A stretch of 63,346 nucleotides of DNA, the filler included, from Asterionella formosa (taxonomy: Eukaryota), in NCBI GenBank assembly GCA_002256025.1. It is 18 parts of 18 records of this genome, joined end to end, with 100 filler letters (N's around TTAATTAATTAA, not from the genome) between each part and the next. Parts side by side here need not be neighbours in the genome. Positions count along the whole stretch, not along the records: positions 19,772 to 21,646 come from NKIB01000960.1; 17 more parts are not named here. One strand, written 5' to 3'. Below the pieces are notes generated by a model. That model searched no databases. It had not been told where the DNA came from and saw only the letters and a list, made by a program, of their open reading frames with translations. Each line of letters begins with the position of its first letter. Positions within the stretch are counted from its first letter, which is position 1. A program made the translations under genes and the position numbers. This document shows, in pieces, positions 13,744-61,885 of the stretch.

Positions 13744-13843
13744 NNNNNNNNNNNNNNNNNNNNNNNNNNNNNNNNNNNNNNNNNNNNTTAATTAATTAAN
13801 NNNNNNNNNNNNNNNNNNNNNNNNNNNNNNNNNNNNNNNNNNN

Positions 13844-15719
13844 CCTTCATTCGGTTCGATAGTTCGGGTTGCCAGAAATGCAATTCCTGGTTGAATGTCC
13901 TGTCTTCCTCGCTTACATAGGAACATTCCTTTCATAACAAAAGTATGAAATATTTTTGCTTTTTCATGTTCAAGCTTCTTTGATTTCGTATCAACTGTGA
14001 ACAATTTATCTGTCCATGGAAATTTTCCAACACCTTCAAGTTTCACTGGAAAATCATCAATCATTGATTTGACAAAATTGGTCATGTCCACCCTCAACAC
14101 TCCTGGAATAGAGTAATCTAGCGTCATAGCCAAATAATCATGCTTCTTTCCACGCATGACCTTGACTTCACCAATTTCGTCAGAAGCGTATTTATTTTTG
14201 AGCCATTCCAAAAATTGATCATTCACTTTGCTGTCCACGTGACTTGATTTCAAATCGTCTACGTGCCAAGTAACTGTGTGCTGTTTGCCATTAACAATGC
14301 GATTTGCAACACATGGATCATATGGGTTTACCTTGAATCCAATTGACTCAATATCCTTCCGAAATTTCTTGTAATATAATAATGATGACTGTAACATGCC
14401 ATATAATGCCTTGATCATCCTAACATATAGGACCTTGTTGTTCCCTTCATAAACAACATAGTTTTTATAAGTCTCGGGGCTGAGTTCTGTCAACATATTG
14501 ACAAGCAAGCCTCTAATCTTCATAATGATTCGCTCCCCTTTTTCTTTCTCATCGATATCCACTTGCACAAATGCATTGGGTATATCTGCAGTCATAACAT
14601 CGCGATTTTGCTTCGCATCAATTGTTGCTGTTATCATAACAGATTCAGTCATGGTAGTTGGACTAGCTGCTTCATCTCTTTCCATGTATTCACGTTGCAA
14701 ACTGCCATTGGCACATGCTCTGCCTTTAATGCTCTTGTCTCTCTTTTCAACCAAAAAAATTAGACTTTCCATTGCACGTCGCTTTTCGATATCAGTTAGG
14801 TCTTCAATCCTAATCGGTTCAAACACAACTCTATCATGTAGTTGTTTCATTTCCTTATAAGCAGCGTCTCTTCCTTTCTGGCCAAATTTCTTGAGGCCTT
14901 TCCTTAAGCTGTATGACTGAACAAAGTGAAATGCTTCTTTATCGATACACATCTCATTCATATAACACATTGTCTTTGCGATCACTTTCGCATTATCAAT
15001 CGTGTATTCTTCTCGACAGTGTGCTTGGGTATGCAAATGATTTTGGACCATAGTTAGTTTTGATGGTGGTCTTGAGACTCTTCCAGACCTTGTAGTTCTA
15101 ACATTTGGGTCTGAGTCATCCTGAGTGCTTGGATTGACTTCTAACAATGCCTCTTCATTTTCAGTTTCATTTGCTGTCTCTTCATCCTCATCTTGGATAT
15201 CATCTGCATTCATTTCAATATTATTCTCATTGTTGCCCTCGTCAGGTTCAGGGTCATCCTCTTGAGTATTGTCATTTAATTCGAGCTGTTCTGCTTCATA
15301 TATTTCATCCGGAGTCATTTCATCATAGTCTTCTTCTCCGAGAATTTCATCATTGCTTTCGTTGTCACTAGCATCTTGATCTTCATAATCTTCGTCTTGT
15401 GCATCTTCAAATGCTTCATTATCATAATCCACTCCTGCAATCCAAGCACTATCATAAAATAGTTGTCCCGTTCGATTTGCTATCTTGAGACCATCTGGCA
15501 TATTTTCCTGCACAGCAAGGGCGTGTACTTGATTCATGATTGCTGGGGTAAGTGGTAGAGGAGTAATTGTTCGTCTAGTGATCAATGAATTCGTAGGTAG
15601 GTGTAACAATTCATGACCTCCTTGCACATTGTCATTGTAGCGTAGAAAAATGCAATCTAGGCTGCGAGGTGCATTTGTGTTTGAAAACACAGGTTCTTCA
15701 TGTGCTTGGACATAAGTGC
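13844..15719 (-). mobile_element. Ty1/Copia (CoDi-like) pol fragment, intact frame
   Basis: IKGRACANGS, ADIPNAFVQ, KALYGMLQS, NPYDPCVAN, WHVDD RT motifs; acidic integrase-RT linker. Confidence 0.95.
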
Positions 15720-15819
15720 NNNNNNNNNNNNNNNNNNNNNNNNNNNNNNNNNNNNNNNNNNNNTTAATTAATTAANNNNNNNNNNNNNNNNNNNNNNNNN
15801 NNNNNNNNNNNNNNNNNNN

Positions 15820-16535
15820 GCATTCACTTTCTCAGCTGTAAACCCGTGTCTCCACCTAGCCTCACTACATCCATCCCTCCTCTTAACGGTGCTATTTACG
15901 TCCACTGTCAAATTCTTAAGGAGGTTGTATCAAGTGCTGCTGAGGCCGAATTAGCTGCTTTATTCCACAATGGCAAAGAGGCATATGCTATTCGCACCAT
16001 TCTTGCTGAGCTTGGTCATCCCCAACCTTCTACCCGTATTGTCACCGATAATAGCACTGCCAGTGGCATCGCCAATGATACTGTCCGACAAAAACGTTCC
16101 AAAGCTATGGATATGCGTTATTACTGGGTACGCGATCGGGTTCGCCAAGGCCAATTTCTTGTATACTGGAAAAAAGGTAGTTTGAATCGTGCTGATTATT
16201 TCACTAAACATCATCCCGCTTCCCATCATATGTTGATGCGCCCGCACTACCTCCATTGCCCTCCATCCCTCCCTAGTCCTCCTAACTATTATGCGTGCTT
16301 GGCTTCCGATGCTGATAGCATCTCCCTCCCCGCTCCTGTTCTCCTGCCTGCATCTGTTGGTGAGGGTGTGTTAATATCTGCATATGATGCTCCATACATG
16401 CGCCATACGAACCATACCGGCGCAGCCACCAGATTAGGTACATGCGTGAGTGCTGACAACGATGTACTTGGAACAGCAATAGAATAGTCATAATATTGTA
16501 GTTCACCTTTATTCACGATAAGGTTCCCCTCAACA
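15820..16535 (+). mobile_element. Copia RNase H 3' end plus 3' LTR
   Basis: SSAAEAE, TDNSTA, KRSKAMDMRYYW, NRADYFTK; purine-rich GGTGAGGGTG tract before the LTR; ORF ends at 16487 inside the LTR. Confidence 0.93.
16369..16535 (+). repeat. Short 3' LTR (167 bp)
   Basis: TGTTAA...TCAACA directly after the polypurine tract. Confidence 0.75.
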
Positions 16536-16543
16536 CCCTTGTA

Positions 16544-16643
16544 TCTGGCAAGTTGAGGTAATTTTGCTTACACCAACAATTTAATCGAGGATAAAGATAG
16601 CTAAATCTTTAATTGATCAAAATTACCGCAACTGCCTTGCTGG
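16544..16643. mobile_element. MITE family C, copy 1 (about 95-100 bp)
   Basis: GCAAGTTGAGGTAATTTTG...CAAAATTACCGCAACT..TTGCTGG|TA; internal sequence homologous to 34534-34629 and 52626-52719. Confidence 0.8.
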
Positions 16644-19671: not shown

Positions 19672-19958
19672 NNNNNNNNNNNNNNNNNNNNNNNNNNNNN
19701 NNNNNNNNNNNNNNNTTAATTAATTAANNNNNNNNNNNNNNNNNNNNNNNNNNNNNNNNNNNNNNNNNNNNATATAATATGTAGCTCACAATTTCTAATA
19801 AATACTTTAGGAATTAGTCGTCATTACAAACCTTCCGCTTCTACAAGTTAGAACAACCTCAAGAGTCTACTTCATCCTGCTTCATTGCAAGAACTGTCGA
19901 CAGTACTATTCATCTATAACAAGTGCTACCTAGTGTAGTTTCAGGATGCACCCAGCCA

Positions 19959-20382
19959 GAATGCCAACAATAGATGCCAGTTTGGAAACCCAATTGGTAG
20001 TAAAAATATAATTGATACCTAATTGGTAGCAGCATTTCATTCCCCAACCTGAGCACCAACAAAGATACCAATTTGGAATCCCGATTGGTAGTAAAAAAAA
20101 ATTGATTGGAATGCCAACAGTAGATAACAATTTGGAAACCCAATTGGTTGTGAAAATAAGATTGATACCAATTTGGATTAAAAAAACAAATTGGTAGCAA
20201 ATTATACCAATATGGTATTTCTGTAAAGCTAAATAAATATCTACATGAAGGTTAGCCATATCTTACAATTTTTGCCAAATTGTTATCAAAAATCCCAATT
20301 TTGGATTTCGGACTTAGAGAAAAGACGAAAAACATTCGAAATCTCAATATGGAGTCCAAATTGGTACTTCTCGGTCACTGTG
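19959..20382 (-). repeat. Transposon-like terminus: CACAGTG end with subterminal CCAATTGG/AATTGGTAG repeats
   Basis: More than 10 CCAAWTTGG-type motifs, about 151-bp higher-order duplication (19959 vs 20110), ending at CACTGTG 20376-20382. Confidence 0.6.
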
Positions 20383-20736
20383 AGCCTGGTACCAGGGTAC
20401 TCTGGTTTATATCATGACACCGTGATGACTTTTTCCATGACTGAAACGAATGCAATGCTTCCAACAAAGACAATGGCCAAATACCTGGTACAGTAGTACC
20501 TGGTACCGAAACTAAGCAATCATACTCCGAGTACCCGTACTAAGATGTGTTAAAATCGCGCTTATATTTATAAGCCCTACCTGTACCATGTTGTCATTCA
20601 TGACTCAAATCAGCGCTAGTGCGGCAAAGCCGATCTCTTCCATTCATGCTGGCCAACTCAGTCTTTAATAGGAATGAATTATGATGACGGAAAAGCTTTT
20701 GTTTGCTCACATGCGTTTCCATCCTTTTCATCAAAC

Positions 20737-21086
20737 ATGATGATATCCATCAACAATTCTGCTCTTGCTCTTGTGAGCATCATGATCCTCTTGCAGTCAG
20801 TACTTTCTCAAAACTTGACTCAAGTCGCATGTGGAAACGGAATCACTGGAAATGGACTGTGTGATGATTCAACTTTGTGCTGCAGCAGTTATGGTTACTG
20901 TGGCACCGGTGCCGATTATTGCACAATGTTGACCGAGGACCCAGCAACTACGGCGCCAGTATCTAATGCCCCAGTCATGGCACCACCTGGTAATAGCTCT
21001 GTTCCATGTGGAAATGGCGAAGTCGGGAATGGGAATTGTGAAGTTTCTAGTGAGTGCTGCAGCTTTTACGGATACTGTGGCACTAG
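20737..21086 (+). pseudogene. Secreted chitin-binding type-1 (hevein/CBM18-like) protein, interrupted by an LTR
   Basis: Hydrophobic signal; two CG.G..GNG.C.....CCS.YGYCGT domains; the second is cut at 21087 by TGTTGG. Confidence 0.85.
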
Positions 21087-21438
21087 TGTTGGAAAAATTC
21101 GAGCTGACTGCCACAGGACAGGCGTGAAGGGTATAGTAGACACGAGAGAGTACAGTACTACAGTTAAAACCGTACAGCCGCTAACAAGAGTTACCTGGGC
21201 TGACGTGGTAAAAGGCACCACGCAAGGAAAAGCAATCAGAGGTCAAGAAAATATGTTAAAGTGCAGTGTGAGTAATAAGAGTGTTTCGAGACCATTATCT
21301 CGAAACAATCCAGTTAGTAAAGTGAAAGTTTAAGTTTGACAACTTCCTCGTTGCTATCAATTTCATCAACTGTATTCGATTAACACAGTACTAGGTTCAA
21401 GGCCTACGATACAGTCGAATATGGCAGTTGTTACAACA
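21087..21438 (+). repeat. 5' LTR (352 bp) of an LTR retrotransposon
   Basis: TGTTGGAA...TTACAACA; followed by a PBS-position sequence, a leader and a gag-like ATG at 21593. Confidence 0.8.
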
Positions 21439-21452
21439 TTGTTTCGAGATAA
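21439..21452 (+). promoter_or_regulatory. Self-complementary primer-binding site
   Basis: TTGTTTCGAGATAA is the exact reverse complement of LTR 21295-21308. Confidence 0.7.
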
Positions 21453-21592
21453 AAATAAAACAAAAGGAACAGCCATTCACATGGAAGGCTGGAGTTTCAA
21501 CATTTTAATCTAATCAAGTTTTTTGAACACTTTATAGATTCGAGTAGCGCAGCTGAAGGCCGCAGCCACCAATCAAGGAACCAACGAACCCC

Positions 21593-21646
21593 ATGAGCGC
21601 CACCCCAGACGCAACGACAAGCGGCAGCTTAGCGAGTGGACGCGGC
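21593..21646 (+). CDS. Probable gag N-terminus (MSATPDATTSGSLASGRG, cut by contig end)
   Basis: ATG about 155 nt downstream of the LTR, frame open to the linker. Confidence 0.5.
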
Positions 21647-21899
21647 NNNNNNNNNNNNNNNNNNNNNNNNNNNNNNNNNNNNNNNNNNNNTTAATTAATT
21701 AANNNNNNNNNNNNNNNNNNNNNNNNNNNNNNNNNNNNNNNNNNNNCACCCCATTGCAGAATGGTGAGTCTCACAACTAAGTATCAGCCAGTCGATTAAA
21801 ATTGGACTGTCTTTTGTGCGCCCTCGTTGTGTTTGTACTTAACTTGGCAACTGTCAGCCAAGAGCAGCCATGGTATGATGCCACCATTTATTGTCTATG

Positions 21900-30532: not shown

Positions 30533-31520
30533 TCACAATGCAGATTCATAGTCAGAATCAATCACTTTGAACTGGTCCTCCTCATCTAACTTGGAATCCG
30601 ATTTTTCACCACCAGTAGAGGTTTCACAACTAGTTGAGGACACAGCAGAAGACGAGGTTTCAGAGGAGGATGGGGTTGTAGATGGAGAACGTAAAAGATT
30701 CTCGCCATCGGCAGGGACATGGATGAGAACTTTTCCTGGGATGGAAACATTCTCCGAGAGAATAGAATATTTTTGAAGGCCTTTTTTGGGCATCGTATTA
30801 CCTTTTTCTTTTCGAGCAACATTAACTTCATTCTTTGCAAAGAAAGGTGGGACAGTAGGTTGGATTTTTTTGACAGATTTTTCAACAGATTTGAGAAATT
30901 CCAAAGAAGGACCATCCTCGGAGACATTGGAACTATCTTCGTCTTGGCTTTGTGAATTCAGCTTGCTGGTGTGCTCTGTTGGAGGCACAGGTTTGGGTAC
31001 CGGTTTGATATGATCCTTCTTCTGGAGAATAAGACGAAGTCTACCCTTCGTGACCTCATCATCCTTCTTGTCGACCGCAGGCACCTCCTTCACACTTGAT
31101 TTCTGAACAGACTTGAGAAATTCCAAAGAAGGAACATCCTCTGAGAGAATGGAACTATCTTCGTCGTCTTTGCCTTGCGGAATCACTCTGGTGGTATGCT
31201 GAATCACTCTGGTGATATGCTTGGTTGGAGGCACAGTTTTCAGACCAGGTTGGACATGATCCTGCTGAAGGGAGATAGAATGTGGGAGCTTGATGATAGA
31301 CCAGGTTTCACCTAAAGTTTCATCTGTGTTCCTATCTCGCTGGAGGGTAAGATGTGGACCCTTCTCGACCTGCTTATGATCCTTGCAGTTGATCCCAAGC
31401 AACTTCATATTCGATTTTTCAACAGACTTGAGAAATTCCAAAGAAGGACCAGCATCTGAGGCATCCTCTGAGGCGATGGAAATATCTTCTTCGTCTTTGC
31501 CTTGTCGATTAGCCTTGGTG
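30533..31520 (-). CDS. Repetitive low-complexity protein, 5'-partial, convergent with the transposase
   Basis: Open frame with three DED.S..SED.PSLEFLKSV.KS repeats. Confidence 0.6.
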
Positions 31521-31620
31521 NNNNNNNNNNNNNNNNNNNNNNNNNNNNNNNNNNNNNNNNNNNNTTAATTAATTAANNNNNNNNNNNNNNNNNNNNNNNN
31601 NNNNNNNNNNNNNNNNNNNN

Positions 31621-34533: not shown

Positions 34534-34629
34534 CCAGCAAGTTGTGGTCATTTTGCTTAAACAAACATTTCAATCTTTGATACAGATAGCTAAATCTTTA
34601 GTTTCAGCAAATTTACCGCAACTTGCAGG
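34534..34629. mobile_element. MITE family C, copy 2 (96 bp, TA TSD)
   Basis: TA|CCAGCAAGTTGTGGTCATTTTGCT...AGCAAATTTACCGCAACTTGCAGG|TA. Confidence 0.88.
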
Positions 34630-52625: not shown

Positions 52626-52719
52626 CCGGTAGTTGCGGTCATTTTGCTTAAACTAACATTTTCACCTAGGATAAAGAAAACTAAATCATTAGTTACAGCA
52701 AAATGACCGCAACTTCCTG
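52626..52719. mobile_element. MITE family C, copy 3
   Basis: Perfect 18-bp inverted repeat AGTTGCGGTCATTTTGCT / AGCAAAATGACCGCAACT; left flank TA. Confidence 0.85.
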
Positions 52720-52727
52720 TGAGGGTA

Positions 52728-52938
52728 TGGTACCTGGTACCCTCTGACGTTGCGTACGCGGTACAAGTGTCCCTGGTACTACGACCCTGATATTTGGTAC
52801 CAGGTACCAGGGTATGTAACTCAAGAGCATATCGGTAAATACAGGTACCTGGTACCGTACCAGGTCCTACCTGTACCATCGGGTACTTGTACCTGGGCCC
52901 TGGGACTACCTGGTACCAGGTACCAGGTACCAGGTACC
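52728..52938. repeat. Dense TACCWGG / TAC..GTA array
   Basis: For example TACCTGGTACCAGGTACCAGGTACCAGGTACC. Confidence 0.9.
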
Positions 52939-53835
52939 ACATGAGCCTGTCACAACATGCAGAATTTCCAATTTGGAGGTCAAGACGGGATTTAGTGCTC
53001 ATTGATGGTCCAGACAGCACACTTGCTACACTTACCGGTAATCCACTTCTGAATTTAAATTGCATACTAGTTCTGCCGCTATTCTGAAGGAACAGCACAA
53101 AATGAATTTCAGGACATCATAACAGGGGCAAGTATGTGAAGCATGTGCCTTACCGCCTGCAAAAGCTCATTTGTCTGAGGGCAAGTGGCACACCATGGAC
53201 CGTATAATTGTAAACGGCAGAGGACAGACCAATCGCTTCGGTACAAGCATTTCCCGAAAACAACAACGTTGTACATGCCATGTGATTTAGGTCAGCATGG
53301 TTGATCACAATCACATGTGATGTATCTCATCCATTCCTCACCAGTAATGCTCACCAGGTAAAAAGAAAAGAAAACGGGATTTTATATTTATTTACATTGA
53401 AAACAACGACTGCATTGACTGAGTGCATTGACTGAATAGCCTTGGTTCCAATACCCATAATTAATACTCCAACCGGTACTGGGAATCGCGTGCATACCGT
53501 TATACGTGTTGTCGCTCTATCAAAAAAAGGAATTAAATCGATGTCAGTTTCGCAAACCAATTTTTGCATCACATATTTGTACGACCGTTCCATTCTACTT
53601 TTCTCTTGAACAAATGTCTCGCACAAAGTCGATTTTGTTGTTTACTCCCCATATCAATTTCAGAGTAAGTAATGGTTCCGCTCTCAAATTTTGTTTGTCG
53701 CCATTTGACGTTGCGAAGGAATCTACAACTTGGACTTGGAAGTGAACACAGAGGCCCTTATTTGTTGTGATGCCATTCACATTTTGTATATATAGTATTC
53801 AAGCGCCATGATGTCACACTATCACAATTCCTTTC

Positions 53836-61474: not shown

Positions 61475-61885
61475 GATTGATGTATGTTCCTAACAGGAGA
61501 GCGTCGTTCTCAATTTTCGTAGAGATTTCCGCTATTTTCGTCATGGTCAAGGTTGAGACGACATGATGCAGGATGCTCCAGATGATCACAACAACTACAC
61601 TGTAGGATTTTGTATAGTCAAAAGAATCGCAGTATCTCAGCTAAACAATAATTTACCTTGTAGCGATTGCGAGGGCTACCCTCCATTACCTGGTACCAGG
61701 TAACAGGTACTCCTACCTGATACCTGGCAAGGTACCAGGTACCAGCAGCCTTACTTTCTTCCTCATGTACCTTTTTAATCCTGGTATCATGTGCCTGGTA
61801 CCAGGTACCAGGTACCTGGTTGTTGAATGGTGGTAAAATTGGAGGTCCTCATGGTACACTCGTACAAGACTGCAGACTGCGCCAG
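61475..61885 (-). repeat. Family A, copy 3
   Basis: Reverse-complement match to 2683-3050, including the CTGGCGC terminus. Confidence 0.85.

What the first reader, a model, noticed from the sequence alone, without database searches (positions are those of the whole stretch)
21282..21452. Self-priming LTR retrotransposon with a built-in masking hairpin
Seen: directly after the LTR end (TTACAACA, 21438) there is no TGG tRNA-type PBS. Instead TTGTTTCGAGATAA is a perfect 14-nt reverse complement of 21295-21308 inside the LTR. That target starts at an initiator-like CATT about 20 nt after an AT-rich AATAAG. A third copy, TGTTTCGAGA (21282-21291), lies just upstream and forms a perfect 10-bp stem with 21298-21307. 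Established: S. pombe Tf1 (Ty3/Gypsy) primes reverse transcription with its own RNA 5' end annealed to the PBS. Inference: this element does the same, and the upstream copy lies in U3, so it would be transcribed only in the 3' LTR where it could sequester the second R copy. The element looks Copia (CoDi)-like from the TWADVVKG read-through peptide and gag start, but no pol is visible. Self-primed diatom LTR elements may already be in repeat databases; I cannot check.
Basis: partly seen in the sequence, partly recalled or inferred. Interest (0 to 1): 0.75.

Follow-up and report, generated by a model that had tools for sequence, protein, structure and literature searches.

The report
Self-priming diatom copia element with hairpin
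A young diatom jumping gene seems to start copying itself with the first 14 bases of its own RNA instead of a borrowed tRNA, and its branch of the family carries an extra hairpin that may hide the second copy of those bases.

Summary
The LTR is 21087-21438 (copies, 5-bp target duplication). The family is Ty1/copia (gag-PR-IN-RT-RH), young, with diatom relatives. The 14 bases after the LTR are the exact complement of 21295-21308. The same geometry recurs in 12 lineages with 11 different primer sequences. The pairing always begins right after a CA, where the published diatom initiator puts +1, so the predicted start is 21295, not 21294. No recovered tRNA fits, but that set is incomplete. Tf1-like self-priming is likely (about 0.85); no RNA end was mapped. 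The U3 copy is a conserved hairpin in one clade: 5 of 5 DNA relatives (up to 14 bp), 22 of 28 protein tails compatible, 2 compensatory changes (not significant alone). Most other self-priming lineages lack it, and in this family the PBS outcompetes it in folding, so masking is about 0.4. Self-priming is known (Tf1) and predicted for plant copia TAR; my searches found no paper on diatom copia. The scan noted this self-priming before on other DNA, once with the hairpin.

The parts
20620..21081 (+). 5' part of a host gene with chitin-binding (hevein-like) repeats, interrupted by the insertion; the rest lies in L029
   Evidence: Pfam Chitin_bind_1 E 2.6e-9; continuation in L029
21082..21086 (+). 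5-bp target-site duplication ACTAG
   Evidence: same 5-mer after the 3' LTR in L029
21087..21438 (+). 5' LTR, 352 bp, TGTTG...CAACA
   Evidence: 41 matches in own genome; 3' LTR copies start after the purine tract GAGGAGCG and end here
21088..21333 (+). frame that in the 3' LTR encodes the C-terminal tail of Pol (TWADVVKG at 21193-21216), read across the hairpin
21274..21279 (+). AATAAG; TAA at -19 to -21 in all five hairpin-clade relatives; possible poly(A) or promoter element
   Evidence: function not tested
21282..21291 (+). U3 copy of the PBS, 5' arm of the hairpin
21292..21296 (+). initiator-like CCA|TT in the hairpin loop; predicted +1 at T21295
   Evidence: YCA precedes the pairing in 14 of 14 representatives; diatom CAY+1A / TCAH+1W (PMC4686930)
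21295..21308 (+). predicted self-primer (first 14 nt of R)
   Evidence: exact complement of PBS; letters change with the PBS across lineages
21309..21315 (+). T+15 pairing with the LTR-terminal A, 3-nt bulge, then GTT able to pair with the AAC of the LTR end; predicted cut between 21308 and 21309
   Evidence: T in 14 of 14, GTT at this offset in 9 of 14 representatives; cut site inferred
21439..21452 (+). primer-binding site, abutting the LTR, no TGG
21453..21513 (+). A-rich leader tract and a 10-codon upstream ORF (ATG 21481)
21593..21646 (+). start of the gag-pol ORF (MSATPDATT...), cut by the contig end

Best explanation
This is the 5' end of a recent insertion of a diatom Ty1/copia family that primes its own reverse transcription. 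Shown: anatomy, copia domain order, exact primer/PBS complement, its conservation with changed letters, and a clade-wide U3/R hairpin. Inferred by analogy with Tf1: transcription starts at T21295; bases 1-14 fold onto the PBS 144 nt downstream; RNase H cuts between A21308 and T21309; the freed 3' end primes DNA synthesis at the LTR-terminal A. Plus-strand copying of the primer would then rewrite the PBS, which explains why the two always match. Inferred, weaker: the U3 copy is an accessory of one clade. It is absent from the RNA 5' end but present wherever U3 precedes R (RNA 3' end, read-through RNA, single-stranded cDNA). There it folds first with the second R copy and keeps it from pairing with the PBS or with the retained primer. 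Odds: self-priming about 0.85, hairpin kept as a paired structure about 0.7, masking as its main job about 0.4.
For: Exact 14-nt complement, 0 of 100,000 by chance; P(primer:PBS) 0.98 in the predicted leader. 19 of 40 other own-genome gag loci and 36 of 79 metagenome loci show an 11-16 bp LTR/PBS complement (most of the 36 are one family). The 14 representatives (12 lineages, gag 26-100% identical) have 11 different primers, all with YCA before and T after. The published diatom +1 is the base after CA. 55 distinct tRNA models give at most 6 Watson-Crick pairs. Hairpin: 5 of 5 DNA representatives of one clade, stems 7-14 bp perfect (11-14 with one mismatch), shuffle p at most 0.008, SH-aLRT 98 in a quick tree. 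Upstream U3 is not alignable by eye. 90.8% of cells pair, with 2 both-sided changes and a 2-nt insertion extending the stem in L119. Pol tails read across it in three frames; 16 of 20 and 6 of 8 relatives allow a stem of 8 bp or more, against 13 of 330 and 6 of 80 controls.
Against: No RNA 5' or 3' end mapped (contigs only). The tRNA set is incomplete: 63 of 3876 candidates scored, and no Met tRNA pairs more than 4 bases. The initiator motif is common (67.9% of promoters), and this family has CCATT, not TCATT. The third Tf1 duplex downstream of the PBS is not seen in the folds. Hairpin: absent in 6 lineages and only 8 bp in L124/L130; covariation is not significant (34 of 500 shuffles) and one change is of CpG type; family B's common variant has an uncompensated mismatch. 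In this family primer:PBS is -18.1 against -14.1 kcal/mol for primer:U3 copy, and the PBS wins in 4 of 5 U3-containing models. The tail test shows only compatibility and its rows are related.
Confidence: 0.8

Rival explanations
1. Self-priming is right, but the U3 copy is a neutral by-product: a fold-back synthesis in the clade's ancestor made the inverted repeat, and templated correction keeps the arms alike.
For: The copy is the mirror image of the primer around a 4-nt loop in L119 and L186, as fold-back synthesis would give. Most lineages prime without it. It is shortened here and mismatched in family B and L122.
Against: It persists across families with gag 43-70% identical while the adjacent U3 is not alignable by eye, and across three reading frames.
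Confidence: 0.25
2. The hairpin serves transcription, not priming: it presents the initiator in its loop, or bridges a U3 poly(A) signal to a cleavage site beyond R+15.
For: CATT sits in the loop in 5 of 5; TAA lies at -19 to -21 in 5 of 5, as AATAAA in L119. UAA is the dominant near-upstream triplet in two diatoms (PMC6413133). Self-priming needs R longer than 14 nt (inference).
Against: A triplet is weak evidence; TAA also occurs near this place in 4 of 9 representatives outside the clade. No RNA ends were available.
Confidence: 0.3
3. A host tRNA, tRNA half or other small RNA primes, and the R/PBS complement only protects or regulates the PBS.
For: Half-tRNA priming is known in copia lineages (PMC6317226). 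The tRNA set tested is incomplete.
Against: 11 different PBS sequences each match their own LTR exactly, with fixed boundaries; at most 6 Watson-Crick pairs with 55 tRNA models.
Confidence: 0.1
4. The three copies are chance or an assembly artefact.
For: The window is a string of short contigs joined by spacers.
Against: Same arrangement in dozens of copies with different flanks and in independent metagenome contigs; null tests.
Confidence: 0.01

Closest known systems
Tf1/Tf2 of Schizosaccharomyces pombe and the Tf1/sushi group (Ty3/gypsy chromoviruses)
   Same: PBS abuts the LTR-terminal CA and is complementary to an LTR segment predicted to be the RNA 5' end; no tRNA site (mechanism from passages of PMC7175516 and PMC10085805).
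   Different: Copia domain order; primer 13-15 nt instead of 11; third duplex of the pretzel not seen; U3 copy of the PBS not mentioned in the passages read; priming here is predicted, not shown.
TAR lineage of plant Ty1/copia (Houba, Osr-1)
   Same: Copia elements predicted from sequence to self-prime; criterion of at least 10 bp within 0-5 bp of the LTR end is met here (PMC6317226 passages).
   Different: Plant lineage; that paper's main text has no mention of diatoms; kinship with TAR not tested.
CoDi elements (Ty1/copia of diatoms, Maumus et al. 2009, PMC2806351)
   Same: Diatom host group, PR-IN-RT-RH order, TG...CA LTRs, size about 5.8 kb, CCHC knuckle in gag; named relatives from Fragilaria, Fistulifera, Chaetoceros, Epithemia.
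   Different: The main text has no word on priming, tRNA or primer-binding sites (supplements not readable); CoDi group could not be assigned.
Fungal GalEa copia elements with a conserved hairpin site (PMC5445492)
   Same: Copia elements without a tRNA-type PBS.
   Different: Their hairpin lies after the LTR and the authors found no LTR sequence complementary to it; here the complement is inside the LTR.

Membership tests
Ty1/copia LTR retrotransposon | pol order PR-IN-RT-RH | tested here: met
   gag with zf-CCHC, DSQS protease-like motif, integrase-like region, then RVT_2 and RNase H-like region in one ORF; PR, IN and RH recognised by motif from my own knowledge, RT and knuckle by Pfam
Ty1/copia LTR retrotransposon | two LTRs with TG...CA, purine tract before the 3' LTR, short target duplication | tested here: met
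   5 of 9 distinct 3' flanks have a matching 5-bp 5' flank among the loci held
Tf1/sushi group (membership) | Ty3/gypsy order with RT-RH before a chromodomain integrase | tested here: not met
   copia order, RVT_2, no chromodomain hit in the 1642-aa polyprotein
Tf1-type self-priming (works like) | PBS next to the LTR complementary to an LTR segment | tested here: met
   14 of 14 bases; conserved with changed letters
Tf1-type self-priming (works like) | that segment is the RNA 5' end | tested here: inconclusive
   initiator in register in 14 of 14 representatives; RNA contigs cannot show a start
Tf1-type self-priming (works like) | no tRNA primer | tested here: inconclusive
   no TGG; at most 6 Watson-Crick pairs with 55 tRNA models, set incomplete
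Tf1-type self-priming (works like) | three-duplex pretzel structure | tested here: inconclusive
   central duplex yes; a short GTT/AAC duplex possible in 9 of 14; no PBS-downstream duplex with U5 in the folds
Tf1-type self-priming (works like) | RNase H cleavage releases the primer | not testable with these tools
   needs biochemistry
CoDiI / CoDiII / CoDi6 | RT phylogeny with the reference elements | not testable with these tools
   no reference sequences at hand (supplement unreadable; none named)
plant TAR lineage | RT/RH/INT placement within TAR | not tested
   no TAR references fetched

The most novel reading that the evidence does not exclude
Diatom copia elements evolved self-priming independently of Tf1 and of plant TAR, and one clade added a U3-encoded decoy PBS: a hairpin that can form only where U3 precedes R, so one sequence acts as primer at the RNA 5' end and is hidden at the 3' end and in cDNA intermediates.
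Probability: 0.35. Interest if true: 0.75.

Novelty: new variant of a known kind. Interest (0 to 1): 0.58.

Why it matters
Self-priming has been shown only in the gypsy Tf1 group and predicted for one plant copia lineage. A widespread diatom copia lineage with the same geometry points to another origin, and gives exact predictions (start at 21295, cut after base 14) in a young, multi-copy family. The U3 hairpin speaks to a problem every self-priming element has: the primer sequence is present at both RNA ends. Annotation tools that demand a tRNA-type PBS would miss or downgrade these elements.

Tried and rejected
Alternative LTR end near 21502: rejected. Start-site mapping: 22 runs listed, all contigs; four laid show the LTR with genomic flanks and no usable start or end. 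Relatives in prokaryote genomes and viral contigs: none by protein; the 18 and 1 motif hits are prokaryotic or viral records, taken as chance and not studied one by one. 43 of 79 metagenome loci and 21 of 40 own-genome loci gave no complement of the required length; many lack enough upstream DNA or look decayed; I did not examine them one by one (L158 was recovered). In one search I set aside 2 of 17 classes as spurious (a second L162 hit, organellar L238) and 2 as decayed copies (L104, L143). The 20 extra own-genome stretches gave no new family. Protein coding as the cause of the hairpin's conservation: rejected, since the frame differs or stops before it. A universal U3 copy: rejected. The tree is the quick one; the careful search did not finish, P0079 was left out, and the root is midpoint only. 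CoDi group assignment failed. Intron-allowing tRNA models were spurious and replaced.

Full report
Setting. The window is a string of short contigs joined by N spacers; the finding lies in the piece 19772-21646, contig C960 of the own genome. A host gene with chitin-binding repeats (Pfam Chitin_bind_1) is cut at 21086 by an LTR.

Observation. The primer/PBS duplex has a fifteenth pair, T21309 with the LTR's last A. A 14-base anchored complement arose in 0 of 100,000 resampled LTRs, a 10-bp stem in 1 of 20,000 resampled 22-mers.

The element. A search with 21087-21647 gave 41 matches. 28 loci carry LTR plus PBS; 12 are 3' LTRs that follow the purine tract GAGGAGCG, end at TTACAACA and run into unrelated DNA. 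The LTR is therefore 21087-21438. L029 is the other half of this insertion: ACTAG duplication, host gene continuing, 2 differences in 352 bases, so the insertion is recent. The primer core occurs 98 times in the genome, its reversed control 0 times. Copies give gag (zf-CCHC), protease-like and integrase-like regions, then RVT_2 and an RNase H-like region, in one ORF of about 1700 codons that reads into the 3' LTR across the hairpin. That is copia order. Named relatives come from diatoms.

Primer and PBS in relatives. 19 of 40 other gag loci of this genome and 36 of 79 metagenome loci (mostly one family) have an 11-16 bp complement between the bases after the LTR end and a site 110-190 nt upstream. 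The misses often lack upstream DNA or look decayed; I did not check them one by one. I took 14 representatives of 12 lineages. They have 11 different primers of 13-15 nt. In 14 of 14 the pairing starts directly after YCA (in two the A pairs as well) and a T follows that pairs with the terminal A; the scan did not ask for either. Kadono et al. (PMC4686930, two passages) give the diatom initiator as CAY+1A or TCAH+1W, with +1 on the base after CA. That places the start at 21295, the first paired base. The motif is common, so only its register counts. 55 distinct tRNA models from the genome give at most 6 Watson-Crick pairs, 10 with G-U; only 63 of 3876 candidates were scored.

Mechanism. In Tf1 the first 11 bases pair with the PBS and RNase H cuts between bases 11 and 12 (PMC7175516, passages), within a three-duplex structure (PMC10085805, passages). 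By analogy the cut here falls between 21308 and 21309. The central duplex forms with probability 0.98 in the predicted leader and 0.9 or more in 12 of 14 representatives; a short GTT/AAC duplex is possible in 9 of 14; the third duplex is not seen. These steps are inferred.

The U3 hairpin. It is present in 5 of 14 representatives: this family, family B of the same genome, and L119, L122, L186, with perfect stems of 10, 7, 14, 9 and 13 bp. These fall in one clade of a quick gag-protease tree (SH-aLRT 98). In relatives CATT forms the loop, and this family's stem looks shortened. On the five-row alignment 90.8% of cells pair and two pairs change on both sides, but 34 of 500 shuffles do as well. 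L119 has a 2-nt insertion that extends the stem. Pol tails that read over the site do so in three frames. Leaving out the two own-family rows, 16 of 20 and 6 of 8 allow a stem of 8 bp or more, against 13 of 330 and 6 of 80 controls; at 10 bp it is 18 of 28 against 3 of 410. The other 17 of 39 and 60 of 68 tails had no recognisable primer motif. This test shows compatibility only.

Against masking. Six lineages have no U3 copy, and L124/L130 only an 8-bp match. In this family the PBS duplex is stronger (-18.1 against -14.1 kcal/mol) and wins in 4 of 5 U3-containing models; family B behaves alike. In L119 and L186 the hairpin wins (0.73-0.87). In a 3'-end model without PBS the primer copy is paired to U3 at 0.70-0.92 in the clade, but also at 0.54-0.66 in three outside rows. 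Family B's common variant has a mismatch. Masking here would have to be kinetic. Rivals are a transcriptional role (TAA at -19 to -21 in 5 of 5; UAA dominant in diatoms, PMC6413133 passages) and a neutral fold-back origin.

RNA data. All 22 runs offered were contigs; four laid gave no start. Contigs of other families begin to match at 21275-21283, that is at or just before the U3 arm, and some contigs show the host gene without the insertion.

What is known. Neumann et al. (PMC6317226, passages) predict self-priming for 12% of plant elements, including the copia lineage TAR. Maumus et al. (PMC2806351, word search and passages; supplements unreadable, and they may bear on this) do not mention priming. 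Fungal GalEa elements lack a PBS in a different way (PMC5445492, passages). PMC3601003 and PMC4600332 were read as passages. Searches listed no paper on self-priming in diatom copia or on a U3 decoy; the library lacks most subscription journals, and repeat databases were not searched. The scan's own notes report the self-priming on other DNA eight times, once with the hairpin in this genome; they are unchecked and are not counted as support.

Verdict. A real, lineage-wide, probably self-priming copia leader, with a clade-specific U3/R hairpin whose role is open. New variant of a known kind; interest 0.58.

Noticed in passing
window 21193-21216; Pol tails: A short motif of the type (S/T)(W/Y)AxVV(K/R) recurs in the otherwise divergent Pol C-terminal tails encoded in U3 across many relatives; function unexplained.
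   Followed up: no
window 21076-21087 side of LTR copies; L029:474-484: The purine tract GAGGAGCG abuts the LTR and encodes the conserved EERV peptide at the end of RNase H, so PPT and protein overlap.
   Followed up: partly
window 20620-21086; L029: The insertion splits a multi-repeat chitin-binding gene; contigs in runs X2, X5 and X7 show the gene without it, so the site is polymorphic.
   Followed up: partly
L020, L021, L024: LTRs with the purine tract before and the PBS after: tandem elements sharing one LTR, one-LTR circles or assembly collapse.
   Followed up: no
L124 versus L130: A deletion of about 23 nt in U3 of L130 brings an 8-base PBS-like stretch next to the primer and makes a local hairpin: a possible second origin in another clade, or chance (p 0.004-0.03).
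   Followed up: partly
window 21453-21513: The A-rich tract after the PBS varies by 5-nt units between copies, holds AATAAA, and is followed by a short upstream ORF.
   Followed up: no
window 13792-15771 (-) and 15768-16487 (+): Fragments of two other copia families (IN-RT; RNase H end followed by a purine tract at 16362).
   Followed up: no
window 16551-16635, 34540-34624, 52631-52715; also 52772-52939, 61780-61824: Dispersed 85-nt repeat with AGTTG...CAACT ends (MITE-like) and many GGTACC(A/T) microsatellite-like runs.
   Followed up: no
window 30533-31564 (-): Low-complexity ORF with three imperfect repeats of about 70-110 residues.
   Followed up: no
own-genome RNase H hits: A large family at about 50% identity has a recurring TGA inside the matched region in most copies; may mark the ORF end or read-through.
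   Followed up: no
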